Numbered from the stretch's first letter, positions 43,027 through 49,710 are shown. The stretch: DNA of 64,000 nucleotides from Parasphingorhabdus sp. (GCF_048267785.1 NZ_JBLWWU010000006.1:11942-75941), one strand, 5' to 3'. Numbers and translations: made by a program. Notes: a model not told the origin generated them from the letters alone.

Positions 43027-43440
43027 TTATTTCGCAATCGCGGCGACCTGGAATTCATCGGTATCGAAGCCGTCCTCACCAAATTGGACAGAAAGCGCCC
43101 GCGTCTGAATTTTTGGTCCCGTTGCTCCCCGGATCGCTGCAAAGCCGGAACCATCGAGGGTTACCCGCTCATTCCCGATATTGACGGTAACCCCGCGCAA
43201 GCTGTTGGGACTATAGCGCACTTCCAGATCATAACCGTTGGGGGCATTGCAATATTCGCGCAATTCACCCAGGCGGACCGTATCATTGGTAAATGATATC
43301 CCGGTCGGATTATAACCCACCGTACAGGCTACGGGAACAAATGCCCTTAGATTGAAGCTCATTGAATCGCTTGCGATTGCTGCGGATGCGGATGCTACAG
43401 CTACCGTTGCTGCGACCATCCCAGTCAGTTTCTTGACCAT
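43027..43440 (-). CDS. Small secreted pilin-like protein
   Basis: Signal peptide, donor-strand-like SFNLRAFVPVAC and a second Cys (EYCN); adjacent to the usher cluster. Confidence 0.65.
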   Translation of the reverse strand: MVKKLTGMVAATVAVASASAAIASDSMSFNLRAFVPVACTVGYNPTGISFTNDTVRLGELREYCNAPNGYDLEVRYSPNSLRGVTVNIGNERVTLDGSGFAAIRGATGPKIQTRALSVQFGEDGFDTDEFQVAAIAK

Positions 43441-43660: not shown

Positions 43661-44581
43661 TCAGCGTGCGGTAATCGAAACCGAAATGACATCGCTGTAC
43701 ACCCCGGCGCGTTTATTCGAGACATCACCGATGATGAAGCGAAATGGCAAGGAATCACGGCTGCCGCGGGATCTCTCTGGCTCAATCGTCCCGGAAACCG
43801 TACGGGTTCCACTGAGGTTGAAGCTCTCGTTACCGATCGCGACAGAATAGGGGACGAACCATTGCGTTGAACCCAGACGGAGTTGTCCGGAATTGGCTGA
43901 TGTCACGCTGATATCATATTCACCCGTGCTGTTGACGCGAAGCTGTAGCGGTACCGGTGCGATACCTTGTTTCAGTTCGCCGAGATTGACGACGGCTTGT
44001 CCGTCGCTCATCCGGTAGGCGCCGGCCAGACCGATGCGCGCGGACGGCAATACGGTGATACCCAATACCAGCGAGGAGCCTCCCAGCGACCGGAAATCAC
44101 GATCCTGGGCTTCCAGCGTCACATCTTGCGTGAATGTTCCCGCCGCGCGTACATCGGTGGGGTCCACGATAAGCTTGTACATGATGGAGCGCGATTCTTT
44201 GGGCTGGACCACGATTTCACGCCGCGCAGCCAGGCGCTGGGACCGGCCCGAACGTGGTGTCACGTCGTGCGTGTCGGTCAGGTTCAAAAGCGCGTAGCGG
44301 ACCGGCTTGCCCATGCCTTTTGACAACCCGAATGGCGGTTGTCTCAGCTCGAATGTTGGTGTGAACCGGCATTCGGCGCCTCCTTCATTGACAAAGGTAA
44401 CGCCGAACGTGCCTTCGGGCATCGCGTCAGCGAAAGGGTCGAAGCCGGTGATGATCCAGCTTGCCGGTGTCGGATTGATGCGGAGCTGGCAGTCTGTGGA
44501 TTGCGCAGCCGCGCCAGAAGTCTGTGCCAGGGCCGGTGCGGCCACGGAAGCGGCAACAAAAGTCAAAAATGGGCGCAGCAT
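43661..44581 (-). CDS. Putative two-domain tip adhesin of a chaperone-usher pilus
   Basis: Signal peptide, Cys pair in the N-domain, two pilin-type last strands (GTFTQDVTLE and GVYSDVISVSI). Confidence 0.65.
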   Translation of the reverse strand: MLRPFLTFVAASVAAPALAQTSGAAAQSTDCQLRINPTPASWIITGFDPFADAMPEGTFGVTFVNEGGAECRFTPTFELRQPPFGLSKGMGKPVRYALLNLTDTHDVTPRSGRSQRLAARREIVVQPKESRSIMYKLIVDPTDVRAAGTFTQDVTLEAQDRDFRSLGGSSLVLGITVLPSARIGLAGAYRMSDGQAVVNLGELKQGIAPVPLQLRVNSTGEYDISVTSANSGQLRLGSTQWFVPYSVAIGNESFNLSGTRTVSGTIEPERSRGSRDSLPFRFIIGDVSNKRAGVYSDVISVSITAR

Positions 44582-44590
44582 GAGAGTCTC

Positions 44591-47263
44591 CTATTTTTTC
44601 ATACCCGGCTTGACGATGCCAAGATTGACAAGTCCATCCGTGTCAGCCGGTACAGTAAATTCAAAACTCTTATCGATCGTACCATTCGGGCCATATGTTT
44701 CAACCAGATAGCGGCGACCGGGGAGCAGGTTCGCAATCGCAAAGCGGCCAACCGAATTGGTGAAGAAGGAAAGCGGTTGCGGATTCTCGCCTTCTTCCAC
44801 GTCGAGCAGGGTCGTTCGTCCGCCTATTAACGAGACGGGCTTGTCCGCAGTCAACATTAAAGTACCCATTGCGGTGACAAATGCATCGGTTCCGATGCGC
44901 GCTGCATAGCCGCTCTTGTAAGATGGATAGACGCGGAATACGCCCGAACCAACATCATAGCCGGTCGGTGGATCTTCGACGTCATACTGTACGGACTGGG
45001 TGGAATAGGAACCGAGGAAGTTGTTGACGGCTGCCCCCAACGCGCCGCTACGGCTGATATAATTATTTTCGGCGAGCGACTGTCCGGCAACGACCGCGCG
45101 GTCGCCCAGATTTTCGTGGGCGGAAAGCAGCATGAAGCTGTCATTGATTCGCCGACCGACGCCAAACATGCCGTCAGCAAAGGCCAGCGTGGTGCCGACG
45201 CGGACGGATGTGGCATTGACCGCCCCGAAATCGGAAAGGCTCGGACCAAAGCTGGCGTGACTGACCGACGCATCGAACCGGTTTGCCGCATAAGCCGCAT
45301 AGCCTTGGGCGCGCGCGCTGTCGTTCTCATGCGCGACGATCGCGCCGAAGCCAAGGCTGTTCAACTGATTCAGACCTGACTGATTGTAGGATACTTCCTT
45401 GAGATCATTACGGCTTTCATATCGTGCTTCGGCCCGGCGGCGATAATCCGGCTGGAATACCAAGCCGATGCTGACGCTGAACCCATTGGCGTTCGATAGT
45501 CCCGAAAATTTCGCGTAATCAACCCCGGCCCGGAAAGTCCACTCTCGATTCAGGCGATAATAGCCGGTCGTACCAAGCCGATAGCTATCACCCCTGCCAT
45601 CCCTGCCTTTGAGATAGGTGGCGGTCGTAGTCGTCAAAAATTTCATCGAGAATTGACGGGTATATTGGCCTGACACGGAATAGGCCGTGGTATTGATTCC
45701 CTCGACATTGTTCAATGTCGCAAACTGGGGTGATATATAATCCGCCCGGAGGGTAAAACTGTCGGACAACCCGCTGCGGTCAAAGAAATGCTCATAGCTG
45801 ATGCCGCCCGCAAATCCTTCCCCGGCTATCTTGGAATGGCTCCCACCGGCATCCAGCAATATGCGTCCACCGTTGCCCAGTACGAACTGAGTCTGGCCCG
45901 TCAGCGTTTGTACATCCTTGCTCGCCTGAAGCCCAATTCCGACGGCCGGAGCGTTTATGAAAGCCTTGCGGAAAAAACCGGTAAAGGCGGCATCACCCCG
46001 ATAATCGGGCGCACGCCCAAAGGTCTCGCTCTGGATACCGAAATAGCCACCATATTCAAAATCACCGGGATCAAGATCAATGGGATCGAGATATTGCTGA
46101 TAGGAAAGATTCTGAATCGCGCCGCTATTGTCGATGACCTGAATATCGATGTCATTGCTGCCGGCGATCAGCGGCAGCGAACTGAAATCATAGCTGCCGG
46201 GCTGCAACCGGAGTTCCCGGTAGAGCGAACCGTTGCGCAGGAAGCGGACGGTCGAATCGCGCTGGATGATCAACTGCCGGTTTGATTGCAGTATCGCTGA
46301 CCGAAAGGAGTTGAAGCGCCGTTTTTGCCGCACAACGCCGATACCACCCATCGACACGAACGACTGCTGACCCCGTGTTTCCGGGTCCAGATCGCCCAAA
46401 AACCACCGGCGAAACTGCTCGGGTTGGTCATAAACCAGACGCGCATAATTGCGCGAGAATTCGTAGGAATCCTCCCCGATGCCAAAACTTTGGCCGAGTT
46501 GTGCATCGCCTTCGAACACCACCGGACCGACACGCACCGCTCCGTCAAAATTGATGGTCGGTGGATCCATCTGGCTGCCTTCCCAGATATAGGTTCCGGA
46601 CGCACTCAGGTTCAGATAAGCGGAAAAACCGGCGGGATCCATAGTAATATCATTGGTGTCATCACGCGGCGGCGCAAACAAATCTTCTACCGCCCGTTGT
46701 TCCGGCGAGACGTCGACGACCACCACGGCCAAGCTGCTTGGATCATAGGTTAGCTTTACGCCCGTCATTTCGAGGTCTTCAGGTCCAAAATAAGGCATTG
46801 CGCTCAATTTGGATGAAAGATCTCCATGGGCTTCCTCATTGAGGATGGGCGACATCAGGGAAAGGAATGATTCCGATTCGATCTGGAACCGGTCGTCTGC
46901 TGTCAAAATTAATGGCACATCGCCCAGACTGCGGTTCTGGAAGGTCAGAGGCACCGTCATTTCGATGTCGCGGTCATAAGGGTTGATATCGGGACGACCA
47001 TGAGGCCCGACAGGATATTGCGGCTGCGCCGGCGTTGCAGGATCGGCCGGTTTCGGGTCTTGCGGGCCTGTATCGGGCAGCGGTATGGTTACGGGCGGGC
47101 TGCCCGGTGCTGTCTGCGGCGGAGCATCAGGCCTTTTCGGCAACGGGATCGATACCTGCGCAAGCAGACCGGCCGACCACAAGGGGATTGATGTCTGGGC
47201 ATCAGCGGCGCTCGACAACATGGTCATCGGCGCAACGGAGCAGAGAAGGACCCTTGTTTTCAC
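44591..47263 (-). CDS. Fimbrial outer-membrane usher
   Basis: 890 aa, beta-rich; FLGDL..., GGIGVVR, LQPGSYD, LIAGSNDI and FTNSVGRF usher-like motifs. Confidence 0.85.
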   Translation of the reverse strand: MKTRVLLCSVAPMTMLSSAADAQTSIPLWSAGLLAQVSIPLPKRPDAPPQTAPGSPPVTIPLPDTGPQDPKPADPATPAQPQYPVGPHGRPDINPYDRDIEMTVPLTFQNRSLGDVPLILTADDRFQIESESFLSLMSPILNEEAHGDLSSKLSAMPYFGPEDLEMTGVKLTYDPSSLAVVVVDVSPEQRAVEDLFAPPRDDTNDITMDPAGFSAYLNLSASGTYIWEGSQMDPPTINFDGAVRVGPVVFEGDAQLGQSFGIGEDSYEFSRNYARLVYDQPEQFRRWFLGDLDPETRGQQSFVSMGGIGVVRQKRRFNSFRSAILQSNRQLIIQRDSTVRFLRNGSLYRELRLQPGSYDFSSLPLIAGSNDIDIQVIDNSGAIQNLSYQQYLDPIDLDPGDFEYGGYFGIQSETFGRAPDYRGDAAFTGFFRKAFINAPAVGIGLQASKDVQTLTGQTQFVLGNGGRILLDAGGSHSKIAGEGFAGGISYEHFFDRSGLSDSFTLRADYISPQFATLNNVEGINTTAYSVSGQYTRQFSMKFLTTTTATYLKGRDGRGDSYRLGTTGYYRLNREWTFRAGVDYAKFSGLSNANGFSVSIGLVFQPDYRRRAEARYESRNDLKEVSYNQSGLNQLNSLGFGAIVAHENDSARAQGYAAYAANRFDASVSHASFGPSLSDFGAVNATSVRVGTTLAFADGMFGVGRRINDSFMLLSAHENLGDRAVVAGQSLAENNYISRSGALGAAVNNFLGSYSTQSVQYDVEDPPTGYDVGSGVFRVYPSYKSGYAARIGTDAFVTAMGTLMLTADKPVSLIGGRTTLLDVEEGENPQPLSFFTNSVGRFAIANLLPGRRYLVETYGPNGTIDKSFEFTVPADTDGLVNLGIVKPGMKK

Positions 47264-48063
47264 TGTTTGAACGACAGTTTGATTGGACCGGGGCCAAAGC
47301 CGGGGACCGCCACTCGGAAAATGCGCGAACCCTGGGCAGGGACATAGCCTGTGCCGATCGCACGGTTCAGTTCATCGGGGGAAATATCCACCCGCAAGAA
47401 GTTGCCTTCTGTGTCGGTGCCCACCAGTTGCCAGGTGAAATTCGCCATCATCGCATGGCGACGACCTTCGTTGGTCAGCGTGATGGCCAGCCCTTCCACC
47501 ATGGGTGGTTCTTCGGCCGCGCCGGGCAGAGGGGGAGGCCGGAAAAATGTTGGTTCTACGACCGTCGCCTTGACATCGGGCTTCGCGCCGGGAGGGGCCA
47601 CTACGACCAGTGCCCGCATATTGTAGAGCACCTGGACCTGAGCGCCAATGGCATCAGCGGCACCGGGCTCCAGTTGAACGGGCAATTGTTCCACAGACAC
47701 ATAATATGCCTGTGATGTATCCGGTTCGGCAGCGCCGAGCCATTGCAGGCGCACCACCTGACGGCCGCCTGCGGGTAATATGCCCTGTGGCGGGAACATC
47801 AGAAAATCTTCGTCAGCGGGCGTTTCGGTAATTGTTCCTTCCGCATCAATTTCCATGCGGAAAACGCGGGTTTCAAATGCCAGATTGCCAGGGTTTATAT
47901 TCTGGACCTCGATGCGGGCGGTGGCATTGGTGCCACGTGTTTCCATCTCGACCACCATCGGGGAGACGCGCATTGCAAGGGCTGGTGCAGTCAAGGCCGT
48001 CAGTGCGGCAAATAATGCCAACAGAGCGTATCCACTTCGCCTCAACATCTTTAAAAGCGTCAT
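47260..48063 (-). CDS. Periplasmic pilus chaperone (PapD superfamily)
   Basis: MRVSPM after the signal peptide, FLMFPPQGILPAGGRQVVRL and AYYVSVEQLPV. GTGA overlap with the usher. Confidence 0.88.
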   Translation of the reverse strand: MTLLKMLRRSGYALLALFAALTALTAPALAMRVSPMVVEMETRGTNATARIEVQNINPGNLAFETRVFRMEIDAEGTITETPADEDFLMFPPQGILPAGGRQVVRLQWLGAAEPDTSQAYYVSVEQLPVQLEPGAADAIGAQVQVLYNMRALVVVAPPGAKPDVKATVVEPTFFRPPPLPGAAEEPPMVEGLAITLTNEGRRHAMMANFTWQLVGTDTEGNFLRVDISPDELNRAIGTGYVPAQGSRIFRVAVPGFGPGPIKLSFKQ

Positions 48064-48112
48064 ATTTTGCCCCCTCAACTCATACAATCAGACATTACGC
48101 ATAATATAGTAA

Positions 48113-48144
48113 AGAAAGGGGAAAGATTACTCCTCCCCCTTTCT
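48113..48144 (-). terminator. Hairpin after the major pilin gene
   Basis: AGAAAGGGG / CCCCTTTCT stem, followed by TT on the minus strand. Confidence 0.65.
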
Positions 48145-48163: not shown

Positions 48164-48916
48164 TTAGAGCGCACGAAGCGTCAGGGTCGTGGTACCGCTA
48201 TAATCGCCAGCGACCAGGCCTTTGCCGGTTACGACTGGAGCAGTGATGTCGATGTCCATACGCGAACGCCATGCACCCTGCTGTTTCGTACCAGCATTTG
48301 CAGAGGTTCCGACGGTCAGCGACTGAGGCGATCCAGCAACCTGAGCGTTAAGCGCAACGCCGGTCCAGCTTGCAGCAACTTCGTAAGGAATGTTTGCCTG
48401 GAATTCGTTCGTGTCATAGCCACCTGGAGCAGTGTTTACGAGACCACGAATGTCGTCCTTGGCGATTTCAACATTGTTGTTGAAGTTGCAGCCAGCGGTC
48501 AACGTATCGATGTTGGCGACTGCAGGGCCGACCATTTCGAATGCATTGTTGACGTTTTCGTTGTCGCCGGTGCGAACGCCGATAACACCAAAGTCGATGT
48601 TACGTGCGTTTGAGTTGTTGCCCGAGTAGAAGGAGCAATCCTTGTTGACCGAGCCACTCAGCGTGAACACGACATCAACGACTGGTGTCGCGGTTTCGGT
48701 GTCGCTAGGTGCATCAGCTTGAGCGCGATAGCGTGTGCCAACCTGCGTAGCTACGCCGAGTTCACCAGCGAGAGTGCCGAAAAAGCCAGGATTGGTGATG
48801 GTGTAGCCACCAAAAGCCGTACCGGCATAGTGACGTTCACTTGTCTGTGCCGAAGCAGGTGCCGCAGCGACGGCAAGAGCGAGAGCGGCAGCTGCGCCGC
48901 AAAGGATATTTTTCAT
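48164..48916 (-). CDS. Probable major pilin subunit with long N-terminal extension
   Basis: Ala-rich signal peptide, VVFTLSGSVNKDC...GCNF Cys pair, terminal GDYSGTTTLTL; codons (GCT, GGT, AAC) suggest high expression. Confidence 0.72.
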   Translation of the reverse strand: MKNILCGAAAALALAVAAAPASAQTSERHYAGTAFGGYTITNPGFFGTLAGELGVATQVGTRYRAQADAPSDTETATPVVDVVFTLSGSVNKDCSFYSGNNSNARNIDFGVIGVRTGDNENVNNAFEMVGPAVANIDTLTAGCNFNNNVEIAKDDIRGLVNTAPGGYDTNEFQANIPYEVAASWTGVALNAQVAGSPQSLTVGTSANAGTKQQGAWRSRMDIDITAPVVTGKGLVAGDYSGTTTLTLRAL

Positions 48917-49058
48917 AATCATACTTCCTTTTGTTAAACCGTCCCCCATTAAGCGGAATACGGTCTCAAGTTCGCATCGGTTGGGTCATGAACCAGAGGA
49001 GCATCGATGCCTGCTCTCCCGGCGTAAATCCGTCCGCGGCCCACGCCGCAAACGAAGC

Positions 49059-49583
49059 TCAGATCGGAGAAACCGTGATCGTGATCATCTCCGAATAATC
49101 TCCAGCCAGCAATCCGGCCTCACCCGAAGGTATGCCGAGCTCGACGCCCAGAACCATACCGTCCGTGGCGATGCCGCCGTTGCTGGAAATCACGCCACCA
49201 GCCATAAGCTGACGGCTTGAAAAAGTTTGGCTGAGCATTTGCGTGGCCGGGTGGCGCACGGGCATCTCAACAACAAGGGAATAGGGAAGCTGGCCGCTAA
49301 AGGGGCCCTGACCACCTGGCATCGTGCTGTGGGTCAACGCACCCCGCTCGCCGTTGATGGTCATTGTGAATGGCAGGTTGCAATTGAAGGCGACTTGCGC
49401 TGTGCGGTTTAGGCCGCGTCGTTCGAGATTGCCGAAATCCATGTTCGCGATGCCGCCCATGGAACAATATTCTTTGATCGAACCGCTGACGGCGATATCG
49501 ATGGATTTTGCGTTGTCGATTTCATGGGCGCCAGCAGGCGTGGCCAATGCCATTGCAGCTAATATGGAAAATATGACTCGCAT
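49059..49583 (-). CDS. Minor pilin, spore coat protein U-like
   Basis: Signal peptide, IDIAVSGSIKEYC...FNCN, terminal GDYSEMITITV. Confidence 0.75.
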   Translation of the reverse strand: MRVIFSILAAMALATPAGAHEIDNAKSIDIAVSGSIKEYCSMGGIANMDFGNLERRGLNRTAQVAFNCNLPFTMTINGERGALTHSTMPGGQGPFSGQLPYSLVVEMPVRHPATQMLSQTFSSRQLMAGGVISSNGGIATDGMVLGVELGIPSGEAGLLAGDYSEMITITVSPI

Positions 49584-49694: not shown

Positions 49695-49710
49695 GTTAAT
49701 AAGGAGTTAA
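49695..49710 (-). promoter_or_regulatory. CtrA box (perfect)
   Basis: Minus strand reads TTAA-CTCCTTA-TTAAC, about 110 bp upstream of the pilus operon; TTAACCAT variant at 49908-49915. Confidence 0.7.

What the first reader, a model, noticed from the sequence alone, without database searches (positions are those of the whole stretch)
48683..48847. Major pilin has about 55 extra residues before its donor strand
Seen: after the signal peptide (ASA/Q) comes QTSERHYAGTAFGGYTITNPGFFGTLAGELGVATQVGTRYRAQADAPSDTETATP, and only then the donor-strand-like VVDVVFTLSGSVNKDC. In the neighbouring minor pilin the equivalent strand follows the signal almost directly. Known: CU donor strands normally lie at the mature N-terminus. 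Inference: a cleaved pro-peptide, a surface coat, or a clamp that bundles or stiffens filaments, which would be a new pilus architecture.
Basis: partly seen in the sequence, partly recalled or inferred. Interest (0 to 1): 0.65.

Follow-up and report, generated by a model that had tools for sequence, protein, structure and literature searches.

The report
Pilus subunit with extra variable head
The main building block of a chaperone-usher pilus in this marine sphingomonad carries, ahead of the strand that links subunits, a 55-residue add-on predicted to fold on its own into a small, fast-evolving "head", which would decorate every subunit of the fibre, something not described for this kind of pilus.

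Summary
Window 48683-48847 (minus strand) encodes exactly 55 residues (Q24-P78). They lie between an ASA|Q signal-peptide site and a Csu-like donor strand (V79-V90) that runs into the conserved Cys94.

The gene is the best candidate for the major subunit of a six-gene archaic (SCPU-type) chaperone-usher operon. That operon keeps its order in about 75 Sphingomonadales and Brevundimonas loci.

The extension lies outside the SCPU domain and has two parts:
- Residues 24-67 form a "head". AlphaFold2 folds it the same way alone and in the full protein (beta-beta-alpha-beta, pLDDT about 83), and it resembles no solved fold.
- Residues 68-78 form a linker whose D/N...T-A motif is conserved across the family.

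The head's stem motifs (QT..HYA, TNP, GTRY) are under purifying selection. Its loops take nearly all the indels: the extension is 49-83 aa long against 171-174 aa for the core.

Four genomes carry tandem pilin genes that are 97-100% identical from GTRY (or the linker just after it) to the stop codon but unrelated in the head.

I read the extension as a retained, surface-displayed, swappable module near the subunit junction, not a part of the Ig fold. A cleaved propeptide is unlikely but not excluded. Any clamp or stiffening role is untested. This is a new variant of a known kind.

The parts
48848..48916 (-). Signal peptide, residues 1-23 (MKNILCGAAAALALAVAAAPASA), predicted cleavage ASA|Q
   Evidence: ORF and sequence. 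A21 and A23 are conserved in orthologues. The cleavage site was placed by the -3/-1 rule only.
48683..48847 (-). The 55-residue extension (Q24-P78) named in the finding
   Evidence: Translation. Present in 255 of 258 distinct family members. Lies outside the SCPU model.
48716..48847 (-). Predicted autonomous head mini-domain, residues 24-67: strand 25-32 (QT..HYA), strand 38-41 (before TNP), helix 45-56, strand 60-67 (GTRY.A.A)
   Evidence: AF2 full-length model and AF2 of the extension alone (mean pLDDT 83.1, five models 76.6-83.1) give the same elements. No fold match in PDB or BFVD. The sequence occurs only in this pilin family.
48740..48823 (-). Hypervariable part of the head, residues 32-59 (two loops and the helix)
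   Evidence: Mean pairwise identity 26%, dN/dS 0.51, with indel columns concentrated after residues 34 and 45-46. This is the only coding divergence hot spot against L017, which has a 69-nt insertion here. GRAVY +0.60 and 6% charged residues.
48716..48739 (-). Conserved 'pre-donor' strand G60-A67 (GTRYRAQA). It is the last strand of the head, and the recombination boundary of tandem paralogues lies here.
   Evidence: G60, R62 and Y63 are invariant in 52 orthologues. A family-wide pattern G-S/T-x-Y/I/W-x-A/I-x-G sits at -24..-17 from the donor Phe. The identity boundary falls at GTRY in L012, L016 and L045.
48683..48715 (-). Linker D68-P78 (DAPSDTETATP) with the family-wide motif [GND]-[ND]-x-[GE]-T-A
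   Evidence: Position -12 is N or D in 52 of 64 representatives and position -8 is Ala in 41 of 65. Coil in both AF2 models. dN/dS 0.15 for residues 60-78.
48647..48682 (-). Csu-like donor strand V79-V90 (VVDVVFTLSGSV)
   Evidence: F84, L86, G88 and V90 are conserved. Homologous to SIDIAVSGSIK of the 174-aa subunit. Covered by the N-terminal positions of Pfam SCPU in relatives.
48167..48646 (-). SCPU-like pilin core, residues 91-250, with the conserved Cys pair C94/C143
   Evidence: 13 of 122 family members hit PF05229 (best E 1.2e-6). BLASTP to the 174-aa SCPU-like subunit gives E 1e-6. Weak Foldseek hits go only to donor-strand pilins, including CsuA/B 7zl4 and 6fqa. The length from donor strand to C-terminus (residues 79-250) is 171-174 aa in 52 orthologues.
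48115..48141 (-). Terminator-like hairpin just after the pilin gene
   Evidence: Consensus scan. This arrangement is typical of attenuation after a major subunit gene (inference).
49059..49583 (-). First operon gene: 174-aa SCPU-like subunit without an extension
   Evidence: PF05229 E 0.006. Conserved upstream of the pilin in 70 of 75 related loci (absent only from five loci with truncated flanks). CAI at the 28th percentile.
47260..48087 (-). PapD-like periplasmic chaperone
   Evidence: PF00345 at 23.9 bits, above the cut-off of 23.0. Conserved position.
44591..47263 (-). Outer-membrane usher (890 aa) with a Pro-rich N-terminal region
   Evidence: PF00577 E 5e-5, covering 444 of 549 model positions, below the curated cut-off. 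Conserved position.
43661..44581 (-). 306-aa secreted protein, putative two-domain tip subunit
   Evidence: Conserved position after the usher. No Pfam hit. The role is inferred from the CsuE/CupE6 position.
43027..43440 (-). 137-aa small subunit-like protein (SFNLRAFVPVAC...)
   Evidence: ORF. Conserved, but placed either after the 306-aa gene or upstream on the opposite strand in Sphingomonas loci.

Best explanation
The 250-aa protein is the major subunit of an archaic (Csu/CupE-like, SCPU-type) chaperone-usher pilus. It polymerises by inserting its strand V79-V90 into the groove of the previously assembled subunit. The 55 residues ahead of that strand stay on the mature pilin. Residues 24-67 fold on their own into a small beta-beta-alpha-beta 'head'. 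Its conserved stem (QT..HYA paired with GTRY.A.A) carries hypervariable, hydrophobic, Gly-rich loops. Residues 68-78 are a short conserved tether. The tether is only about 11 residues long and leaves the distal end of the donor strand, so each head must sit on the outside of the fibre. Its place is at the far end of the neighbouring subunit, next to the junction with the subunit beyond, which is the zigzag corner in Csu-type rods. The pilus shaft would thus carry one head per subunit. The head is the diversity-bearing module, exchanged like a cassette while the polymerising body is kept constant. It most likely sets surface properties: adhesion to hydrophobic substrates, pilus-pilus contacts, or escape from phages and grazers. 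Shown here: the sequence anatomy, the conservation pattern, the operon context, the cassette behaviour and the predicted autonomous fold. Inferred: retention after export, position in the polymer, and function.
For: Anatomy and homology:
- The donor strand plus Cys pattern matches the 174-aa SCPU-like neighbour.
- 13 of 122 family members hit Pfam SCPU, and the model begins at the donor strand.
- A PapD-like chaperone and an usher follow the gene.
- The six-gene order is conserved in about 75 loci.

Major-subunit status: CAI at the 88th percentile against the 12th-39th for the other operon genes, a strong Shine-Dalgarno sequence, and a hairpin after the gene.

Autonomous fold:
- AF2 gives the same four elements in the full protein and in the isolated 55 residues.
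- For the isolated segment the mean pLDDT is 83.1 and all five models fall between 76.6 and 83.1.

Selection: dN/dS is 0.15 for residues 60-78, 0.51 for residues 32-59 and 0.20 for the core. Extension length is 49-83 aa against 171-174 aa from donor strand to C-terminus.

Cassette behaviour:
- L012, L016, L045 and L048 carry tandem pilin genes whose 3' 534-564 nt are 97-100% identical, while signal peptide and head are at 20-50% identity.
- L042 shows a weaker version of the same pattern; in L076 only about 120 nt at the 3' end are alike.
- Among 1,242 pairs with bodies >=85% identical, mean head identity is 44%.
- The head is the only coding divergence hot spot between the window and L017.

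Two genes that differ only in a discarded peptide would be hard to explain. The conserved operon encodes no protease. In Csu rods, the N-terminal end of the donor strand reaches the next-but-one subunit at the clinch (PMC9452303).
Against: - No experiment or multimer model shows that the segment survives in assembled pili.
Four of the five full-length models were clearly less confident (62-72 against 84.5).
- Extension-less relatives exist, one in the same operon slot, so the head is not needed for assembly as such.
- A folded 45-residue head travelling ahead of the donor strand has to pass the usher pore together with the preceding subunit. That is sterically demanding and has no precedent.
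- Heads of distant clades (for example Brevundimonas) cannot be aligned with this one, so a common fold is assumed there, not shown.
- The fold similarity of the core to CsuA/B is weak (Foldseek E about 1e-2).
Confidence: 0.55

Rival explanations
1. Extended clinch or clamp. The extension does not stand free. It docks tightly on the subunit two positions ahead, enlarging the Csu-type clinch in which the N-terminal end of the donor strand binds the next-but-one subunit. This would stiffen the rod, lock its geometry or act as a fold-on-exit ratchet that drives secretion.
For: In Csu pili the protruding N-terminal part of the donor strand binds strands A'' and B of subunit N, and clinch formation drives secretion (PMC9452303). 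The 25 residues upstream of the donor strand (strand plus D/N..T-A linker) are conserved family-wide, even in short forms that have no head. That fits a conserved trans contact. The stem motifs are as constrained as the core. The variable part is unusually hydrophobic for an exposed element (GRAVY +0.60).
Against: AF2 folds the segment without any partner, and the pre-donor strand is part of that small sheet. The loops and the helix, which form most of its surface, are hypervariable and indel-rich, while the body they would have to dock on is nearly constant. Tandem genes with identical bodies carry unrelated heads, which is unexpected for a shape-complementary clamp.
Confidence: 0.2
2. Cleaved pro-peptide. 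The extension works only in the periplasm, for example as an intramolecular cap that prevents premature donor-strand insertion, or as a targeting tag. It would be removed before or during assembly, leaving a Csu-like mature N-terminus.
For: It sits exactly between the signal peptide and a complete Csu-like donor strand. The linker motif D-x-E-T-A-T-P is conserved and could be a processing site. Extension-less relatives assemble with the same gene set. Other pilus types, such as type V, do use pro-peptide removal (PMC4789730, listed).
Against: No chaperone-usher pilin is known to be processed in this way (from my own knowledge), and the conserved six-gene operon has no protease. Tandem genes would then encode identical mature pilins, yet they keep radically different heads with conserved stems. 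The pattern of fast, indel-rich change in the loops with conserved stems looks like that of an exposed module.
Confidence: 0.12
3. No defined structure. The segment is a flexible, low-constraint spacer, and the AF2 fold is an artefact of a shallow alignment.
For: The alignment for the isolated segment had only 48 sequences. The middle part is Gly-rich with many indels. Distant clades have unalignable sequences, and some have low-complexity poly-Thr or poly-Gly versions.
Against: Y30, G60, R62 and Y63 are invariant, and Q24, T25, H29, N42 and P43 are nearly so, across 52 orthologues, with dN/dS as low as in the core. All five AF2 models agree, and the same elements appear in the full-length run. 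Only 6-9% of residues are charged and about 10% are aromatic, which is atypical of disordered linkers.
Confidence: 0.08

Closest known systems
CsuA/B of the Acinetobacter baumannii Csu pilus and CupE1 of the Pseudomonas aeruginosa CupE pilus (archaic/sigma chaperone-usher, Pfam SCPU)
   Same: Both have a chaperone, an usher, several SCPU-type subunits and a putative two-domain tip protein. Both have an N-terminal donor strand of about 12-13 residues that runs into a strand carrying a conserved disulfide Cys (CupE1 C41-C85, PMC10104325; here C94/C143). In Csu the N-terminal end of the donor strand already contacts the next-but-one subunit (PMC9452303).
   Different: Csu and CupE major pilins start their mature chain at the donor strand. 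Here 55 residues, a predicted separate mini-domain plus tether, come first. The pilin itself does not reach any Pfam threshold, and its core is about 20-30 residues longer. The gene is second in the operon, not first.
Two-domain tip adhesins of chaperone-usher pili (FimH, PapG, CsuE, CupE6)
   Same: An extra N-terminal domain is carried on a pilin domain and shown on the outside of the fibre.
   Different: Tip adhesins have no donor strand of their own and occur once per pilus. Here the extra domain lies upstream of a donor strand on the polymerising subunit, so it would repeat along the whole shaft. It is also much smaller (about 45 aa) and resembles no known lectin fold.
N-terminal 'staple' of PapA and the N-terminal tails of classical rod pilins
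   Same: Residues N-terminal to the donor strand make extra inter-subunit contacts that shape the quaternary structure. This is discussed as an evolutionary route in PMC9452303, Extended Data Fig. 9 legend.
   Different: Those tails are a few residues long and unstructured on their own. This one has 55 residues, a predicted fold of its own, and cassette-like variation.
TLP-1a/b environmental fibrils (CryoSeek, PDB 9ikj) and archaeal cannulae CanA (7uii, 9h8b)
   Same: They are donor-strand-linked fibres of uncharacterised microbes, and they appear among the weak Foldseek hits of the full-length model.
   Different: There is no sequence relationship (the profile search of PDB was empty). TM-scores are only about 0.3-0.4, the assembly mode differs (n+4 donor, or chaperone-free with Ca2+), and neither has a head domain ahead of the donor strand.

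Membership tests
Archaic (sigma, Csu/CupE-type) chaperone-usher pilus system | PapD-like periplasmic chaperone encoded beside the subunit genes | tested here: met
   Window 47260-48087: PF00345 PapD_N at 23.9 bits (cut-off 23.0), E 4.5e-5. The position is conserved in the related loci.
Archaic (sigma, Csu/CupE-type) chaperone-usher pilus system | Outer-membrane usher | tested here: inconclusive
   Window 44591-47263: PF00577 E 5e-5, matching model positions 97-540 of 549, but at 22.8 bits this is below the curated 27.1. The size (890 aa) and conserved position fit an usher.
Archaic (sigma, Csu/CupE-type) chaperone-usher pilus system | Subunits with the SCPU domain (PF05229) | tested here: inconclusive
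   The pilin itself has no Pfam hit. 13 of 122 family members hit SCPU (best 1.2e-6), and two of the ten relatives tested pass the cut-off: P0171 at 29.4 bits and P0188 at 23.7 bits. The neighbouring 174-aa subunit scores 17.3 bits, below the cut-off, and is related to the pilin (BLASTP E 1e-6). Membership therefore rests on transitive homology.
Archaic (sigma, Csu/CupE-type) chaperone-usher pilus system | N-terminal donor strand leading into a strand with a conserved disulfide Cys | tested here: met
   F84, L86, G88, V90 and C94 are 72-100% conserved in 67 representatives (C94 in all 67) and C143 in at least 90% of the 122 sequences of alignment A2. The SCPU model aligns from 2-3 residues before the Phe. 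Disulfide formation itself was not tested.
Archaic (sigma, Csu/CupE-type) chaperone-usher pilus system | Mature major pilin begins at the donor strand | tested here: not met
   55 residues precede the donor strand. This is the point of departure from Csu and CupE.
Archaic (sigma, Csu/CupE-type) chaperone-usher pilus system | Pilin fold like CsuA/B; zigzag rod with clinch contacts | tested here: inconclusive
   Foldseek of the AF2 model gives CsuA/B chains 7zl4_B, 6fq0_B and 6fqa_D at E 0.011-0.063 with target-normalised TM 0.33-0.53, among other donor-strand pilins and with no hit below 1e-3. Rod geometry cannot be tested with these tools.
Pro-pilins processed by proteolysis (type V pili, FimA/Mfa1 of Bacteroidia) | Lipoprotein signal peptide with a lipobox Cys, removal of an N-terminal strand by a dedicated protease, C-terminal donor strand | tested here: not met
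   The signal peptide is type I (ASA|Q, with no Cys at +1). The donor-like strand is N-terminal, the assembly genes are chaperone and usher, and the operon has no protease.
Two-domain chaperone-usher tip adhesins (FimH/PapG/CsuE type) | N-terminal receptor-binding domain joined directly to a pilin domain that lacks its own donor strand | tested here: not met
   A conserved donor strand (V79-V90) lies between the head and the pilin core. The high CAI and the hairpin point to a polymerising major subunit.
Outer-membrane beta-barrel/opacity-type proteins (one JGI homologue is annotated this way) | Match to OMP_b-brl or related models over the barrel | tested here: not met
   Only a sub-threshold hit (PF13505 E 0.72; NF004860 E 0.0017) covers the signal peptide plus extension. 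Nine extensions without their signal peptides give no Pfam hit even at E <= 10.

The most novel reading that the evidence does not exclude
These are 'decorated' archaic pili, a shaft architecture not yet described. Every subunit would place an autonomously folding, cassette-exchangeable head at the zigzag corner. That is the site where Csu rods make lateral antiparallel junctions (PMC12996565). The heads could then act as allele-specific pilus-pilus or surface recognition modules, deciding which cells' pili stack together. Genomes with tandem isoforms would build mosaic or switchable shafts. Because the head precedes the donor strand, it would have to cross the usher unfolded and fold on exit, which could add a ratchet to secretion.
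Probability: 0.2. Interest if true: 0.8.

Novelty: new variant of a known kind. Interest (0 to 1): 0.6.

Why it matters
Chaperone-usher pilins are textbook single-domain subunits whose mature N-terminus is the donor strand. A major subunit with a folded, variable module ahead of that strand raises three concrete questions.
- How does donor-strand exchange tolerate an N-terminal cargo?
- How does that cargo pass the usher pore?
- What does a per-subunit display module add to an ultrathin zigzag fibre: adhesion, lateral stacking or antigenic variation?

The tandem genes with identical bodies and unrelated heads are a natural experiment. They show that body and head are separable, which also suggests a scaffold for displaying small domains along a pilus. 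The carriers are harmless, cultivable environmental alphaproteobacteria, so the questions can be tested directly.

Tried and rejected
1. **Second donor strand.** I tested whether G60-A67 is a duplicated donor strand. A leave-one-out PSSM of donor strands was scanned over the extensions against shuffles. It was significant only in a few lineages (P0131/L048-type 'SFSITGNAP', P0170 'TFTTSGSAA'). In the window protein z was -1.1. Best hits do cluster 20-24 residues upstream of the donor strand (my count: 15 of about 57). After AF2 placed this strand inside the head's own sheet, I dropped the 'double donor' reading as the main explanation.

2. **OMP/opacity-like N-terminus.** The weak Pfam and NCBIfam hits depend on the signal peptide. 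Extensions without their signal peptides hit nothing.

3. **Relation to TLP-1 pond fibrils.** I read the CryoSeek paper. There is no sequence link, only a weak fold hit.

4. **Head found in other protein contexts.** A search with residues 24-70 alone found only this pilin family.

5. **Fold neighbours of the head.** PDB and BFVD gave nothing below E 0.6.

6. **Profile search of PDB sequences** with the family alignment gave nothing meaningful.

   - AF2 coordinates are not exposed, so I could not see whether the head touches the core, or which strand, if any, fills the groove in the monomer model.
   - Covariation analysis was not attempted, because the stem residues are invariant and the heads of other clades cannot be aligned.
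   - The ribosomal-protein operon is missing from this 91%-complete assembly. The CAI reference was therefore five housekeeping genes (eno, atpA, atpD, dnaK, gap), which is a small set.

8. **Literature searches** for this family in sphingomonads or Brevundimonas found nothing relevant.

Full report
**Observation**

The finding lies in a 250-aa ORF on the minus strand. The ORF spans 48164-48949, and the likely start is the ATG at 48916, preceded by AGGAAG.

- Residues 1-23 are a type I signal peptide ending APASA|Q. I placed the cleavage site by the -3/-1 rule.
- VVDVVFTLSGSVNKDC follows.
- The neighbouring 174-aa gene (49059-49583) has only HEIDNAK between its signal peptide and the homologous SIDIAVSGSIKEYC.

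**Context**

The gene is second in a six-gene minus-strand cluster:

| Order | Product | Evidence |
|---|---|---|
| 1 | 174-aa SCPU-like subunit | PF05229 E 0.006 |
| 2 | this pilin | no Pfam hit |
| (after 2) | terminator-like hairpin, 48141-48115 | consensus scan |
| 3 | PapD-like chaperone | PF00345 23.9 bits, above cut-off |
| 4 | 890-aa usher | PF00577 E 5e-5, below cut-off |
| 5 | 306-aa secreted protein | no Pfam hit |
| 6 | 137-aa small subunit-like protein | ORF only |

tblastn of the six proteins on 75 related loci shows the same genes. The loci come from Sphingopyxis, Parasphingorhabdus, Sphingorhabdus, Novosphingobium, Erythrobacter, Sphingosinicella, Sphingomonas, Brevundimonas and others. 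The order is the same except that the 137-aa gene is sometimes upstream. The system is patchy: 3 of 25 genomes of the genus and 2 of 401 sampled genomes of the class carry it.

The pilin's codon adaptation index, measured against five housekeeping genes, is at the 88th genome percentile. The other five operon genes lie at the 12th-39th. Together with the Shine-Dalgarno sequence and the hairpin, this supports 'major subunit' indirectly.

**Family and domain limits**

The pilin has no Pfam hit. However, 13 of 122 relatives hit SCPU, two of those tested are above the curated cut-off, and there the model begins 2-3 residues before the donor Phe.

Anchoring 67 representatives (<=50% identity) on that Phe shows near-invariant F-x-L/I-x-G-x-V-x-x-D-C. 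The three shortest relatives (P0205, P0210, P0214) start their mature chain 4-9 residues before the Phe, similar to what I recall of CsuA/B. One of them, P0214, sits between a 174-aa-type gene and a chaperone-like start, the same operon slot.

The 55 residues are therefore an add-on to a complete Csu-type subunit, not part of its Ig-like fold. Foldseek of the full-length AF2 model gives only weak hits (E >= 4e-3). The top hits are mostly to donor-strand fibre subunits, including CsuA/B. The profile search of PDB sequences is empty.

**Anatomy of the extension**

In 52 distinct orthologues of the 'GTRY' clade:

- The extension is 49-83 aa long, while the rest of the protein (donor strand to C-terminus, residues 79-250) is 171-174 aa.
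- Indel columns concentrate after residues 34 and 45-46.
- Y30, G60, R62 and Y63 are invariant. Q24, T25, H29, N42, P43, A65, A67 and A69 are nearly so.
- dN/dS is 0.15 for residues 60-78, 0.51 for residues 32-59 and 0.20 for the core.

Family-wide, the 25 residues upstream of the donor strand keep a pattern even in short forms. It consists of a strand G-S/T-x-Y/I/W-x-A/I-x-G at -24..-17 and a linker motif [GND]-[ND]-x-[GE]-T-A at -13..-8.

**Structure prediction**

The best full-length AF2 model (pLDDT 84.5; the other four scored 62-72) shows strands 24-32 and 38-41, helix 45-56 and strand 60-68. The linker and donor strand are coil.

Coordinates are not exposed, so I folded the 55 residues alone with a 48-sequence alignment. 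The same four elements reappeared (residues 25-32, 38-41, 45-56 and 60-67). Mean pLDDT was 83.1 and all five models fell between 76.6 and 83.1. Residues 68-78 were coil.

This predicts an autonomous beta-beta-alpha-beta mini-domain plus tether. It has no fold neighbour in PDB or BFVD. Its sequence occurs only in this pilin family. The variable part is hydrophobic (GRAVY +0.60), 6% charged and 19% Gly.

**Cassette behaviour**

Seven of about 72 loci carry two tandem pilin genes.

- The four clearest cases are L012, L016 (a Sphingopyxis isolate), L045 (an Erythrobacter chromosome) and L048 (a Tsuneonella isolate). In these, the 3' 534-564 nt are 97-100% identical, from GTRY or the linker to the stop codon. 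The signal peptide and head are at 20-50% identity.
- L042 shows a weaker form of the same pattern; in L076 only about 120 nt at the 3' end are alike.
- Among 1,242 pairs with bodies >=85% identical, mean head identity is 44%, and 60% of pairs fall below 40%.
- Against L017 (78% DNA identity over the operon), the head is the only coding divergence hot spot in the first 5 kb, and it carries a 69-nt insertion.

Body and head therefore evolve as separate modules, with the boundary at the conserved pre-donor strand.

**Interpretation**

If V79-V90 complements the neighbouring subunit, as in Csu and CupE, an 11-residue tether cannot return across a donor strand about 40 Å long. This is a geometric inference. 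The head must then lie at the distal end of the acceptor subunit, near the next junction.

The conserved stems, the hypervariable loops and the tandem alleles that differ only in the head all fit a retained, displayed module best. A clamp that docks on the constant body fits poorly with unrelated heads on identical bodies, but it is not excluded. The family-wide pre-donor and linker motif may well make a conserved trans contact.

A cleaved pro-peptide is disfavoured by the tandem alleles and by the lack of a protease in the operon. Only protein chemistry can exclude it.

How a head ahead of the donor strand passes the usher remains unexplained. Folding on exit is a possibility. Csu rods stack laterally through junctions at their zigzag corners (PMC12996565), which is where these heads should sit. 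That gives a testable functional lead.

**Verdict**

The feature is real and conserved. As far as I could find, it has not been described. It is a new variant of the archaic chaperone-usher pilin.

Noticed in passing
L012:2061-3740, L016:7001-8670, L045:7001-8616, L048:4203-5959 (also L042, L076): Tandem pairs of major-pilin genes. Their 3' 534-564 nt are 97-100% identical, but their signal peptides and heads are unrelated. This looks like gene conversion of the body or cassette exchange of the head. The window's own genome has a single copy.
   Followed up: yes
L048:4203-5039 and L068 (Tsuneonella, Aurantiacibacter): A head variant with two poly-Thr runs (PVTTTTTT) flanking a Cys pair. Its pre-donor strand TQFTITGSA closely copies the donor strand SFTLTGTV. 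This is the clearest case of a duplicated donor-like strand. The poly-Thr runs could be O-glycosylation sites.
   Followed up: partly
window 46930-47263 (usher residues 1-110) and chaperone residues about 190-210 (window about 47460-47520): The usher starts with a Pro-rich region of about 100 residues (PLPKRPDAPPQTAPGSPPVTIPLPDTGPQDPKPADPATPAQPQYP). The chaperone carries a Pro-rich insert (FFRPPPLPGAAEEPP). Neither is typical of Csu or CupE machinery. Whether they relate to handling the pilin head is unknown.
   Followed up: no
window 43027-43440: The 137-aa subunit-like gene changes place between lineages. It lies after the 306-aa gene in Sphingopyxis and Parasphingorhabdus, and upstream on the opposite strand in Sphingomonas loci. 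It is the least conserved operon member (about 43% identity where the others are 65-75%).
   Followed up: partly
whole genome G000 (35 contigs): Motif scans found no EF-Tu, S12, L2 or RpoB. The str/S10/spc ribosomal-protein region therefore seems to be missing from this 91%-complete assembly.
   Followed up: partly
window 49696-49710: TTAA-N7-TTAA (TTAACTCCTTATTAA on the minus strand) lies about 115 nt upstream of the first pilus gene. Another reader noted it as a possible CtrA box. I saw it in the sequence but did not test it.
   Followed up: no
L060:7829-8848: The second pilin-like gene in this Sphingomonas locus is 339 aa, with an internal repeat and an N in the record. This is probably an assembly problem, so I left it out of the tandem-pair analysis.
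   Followed up: no
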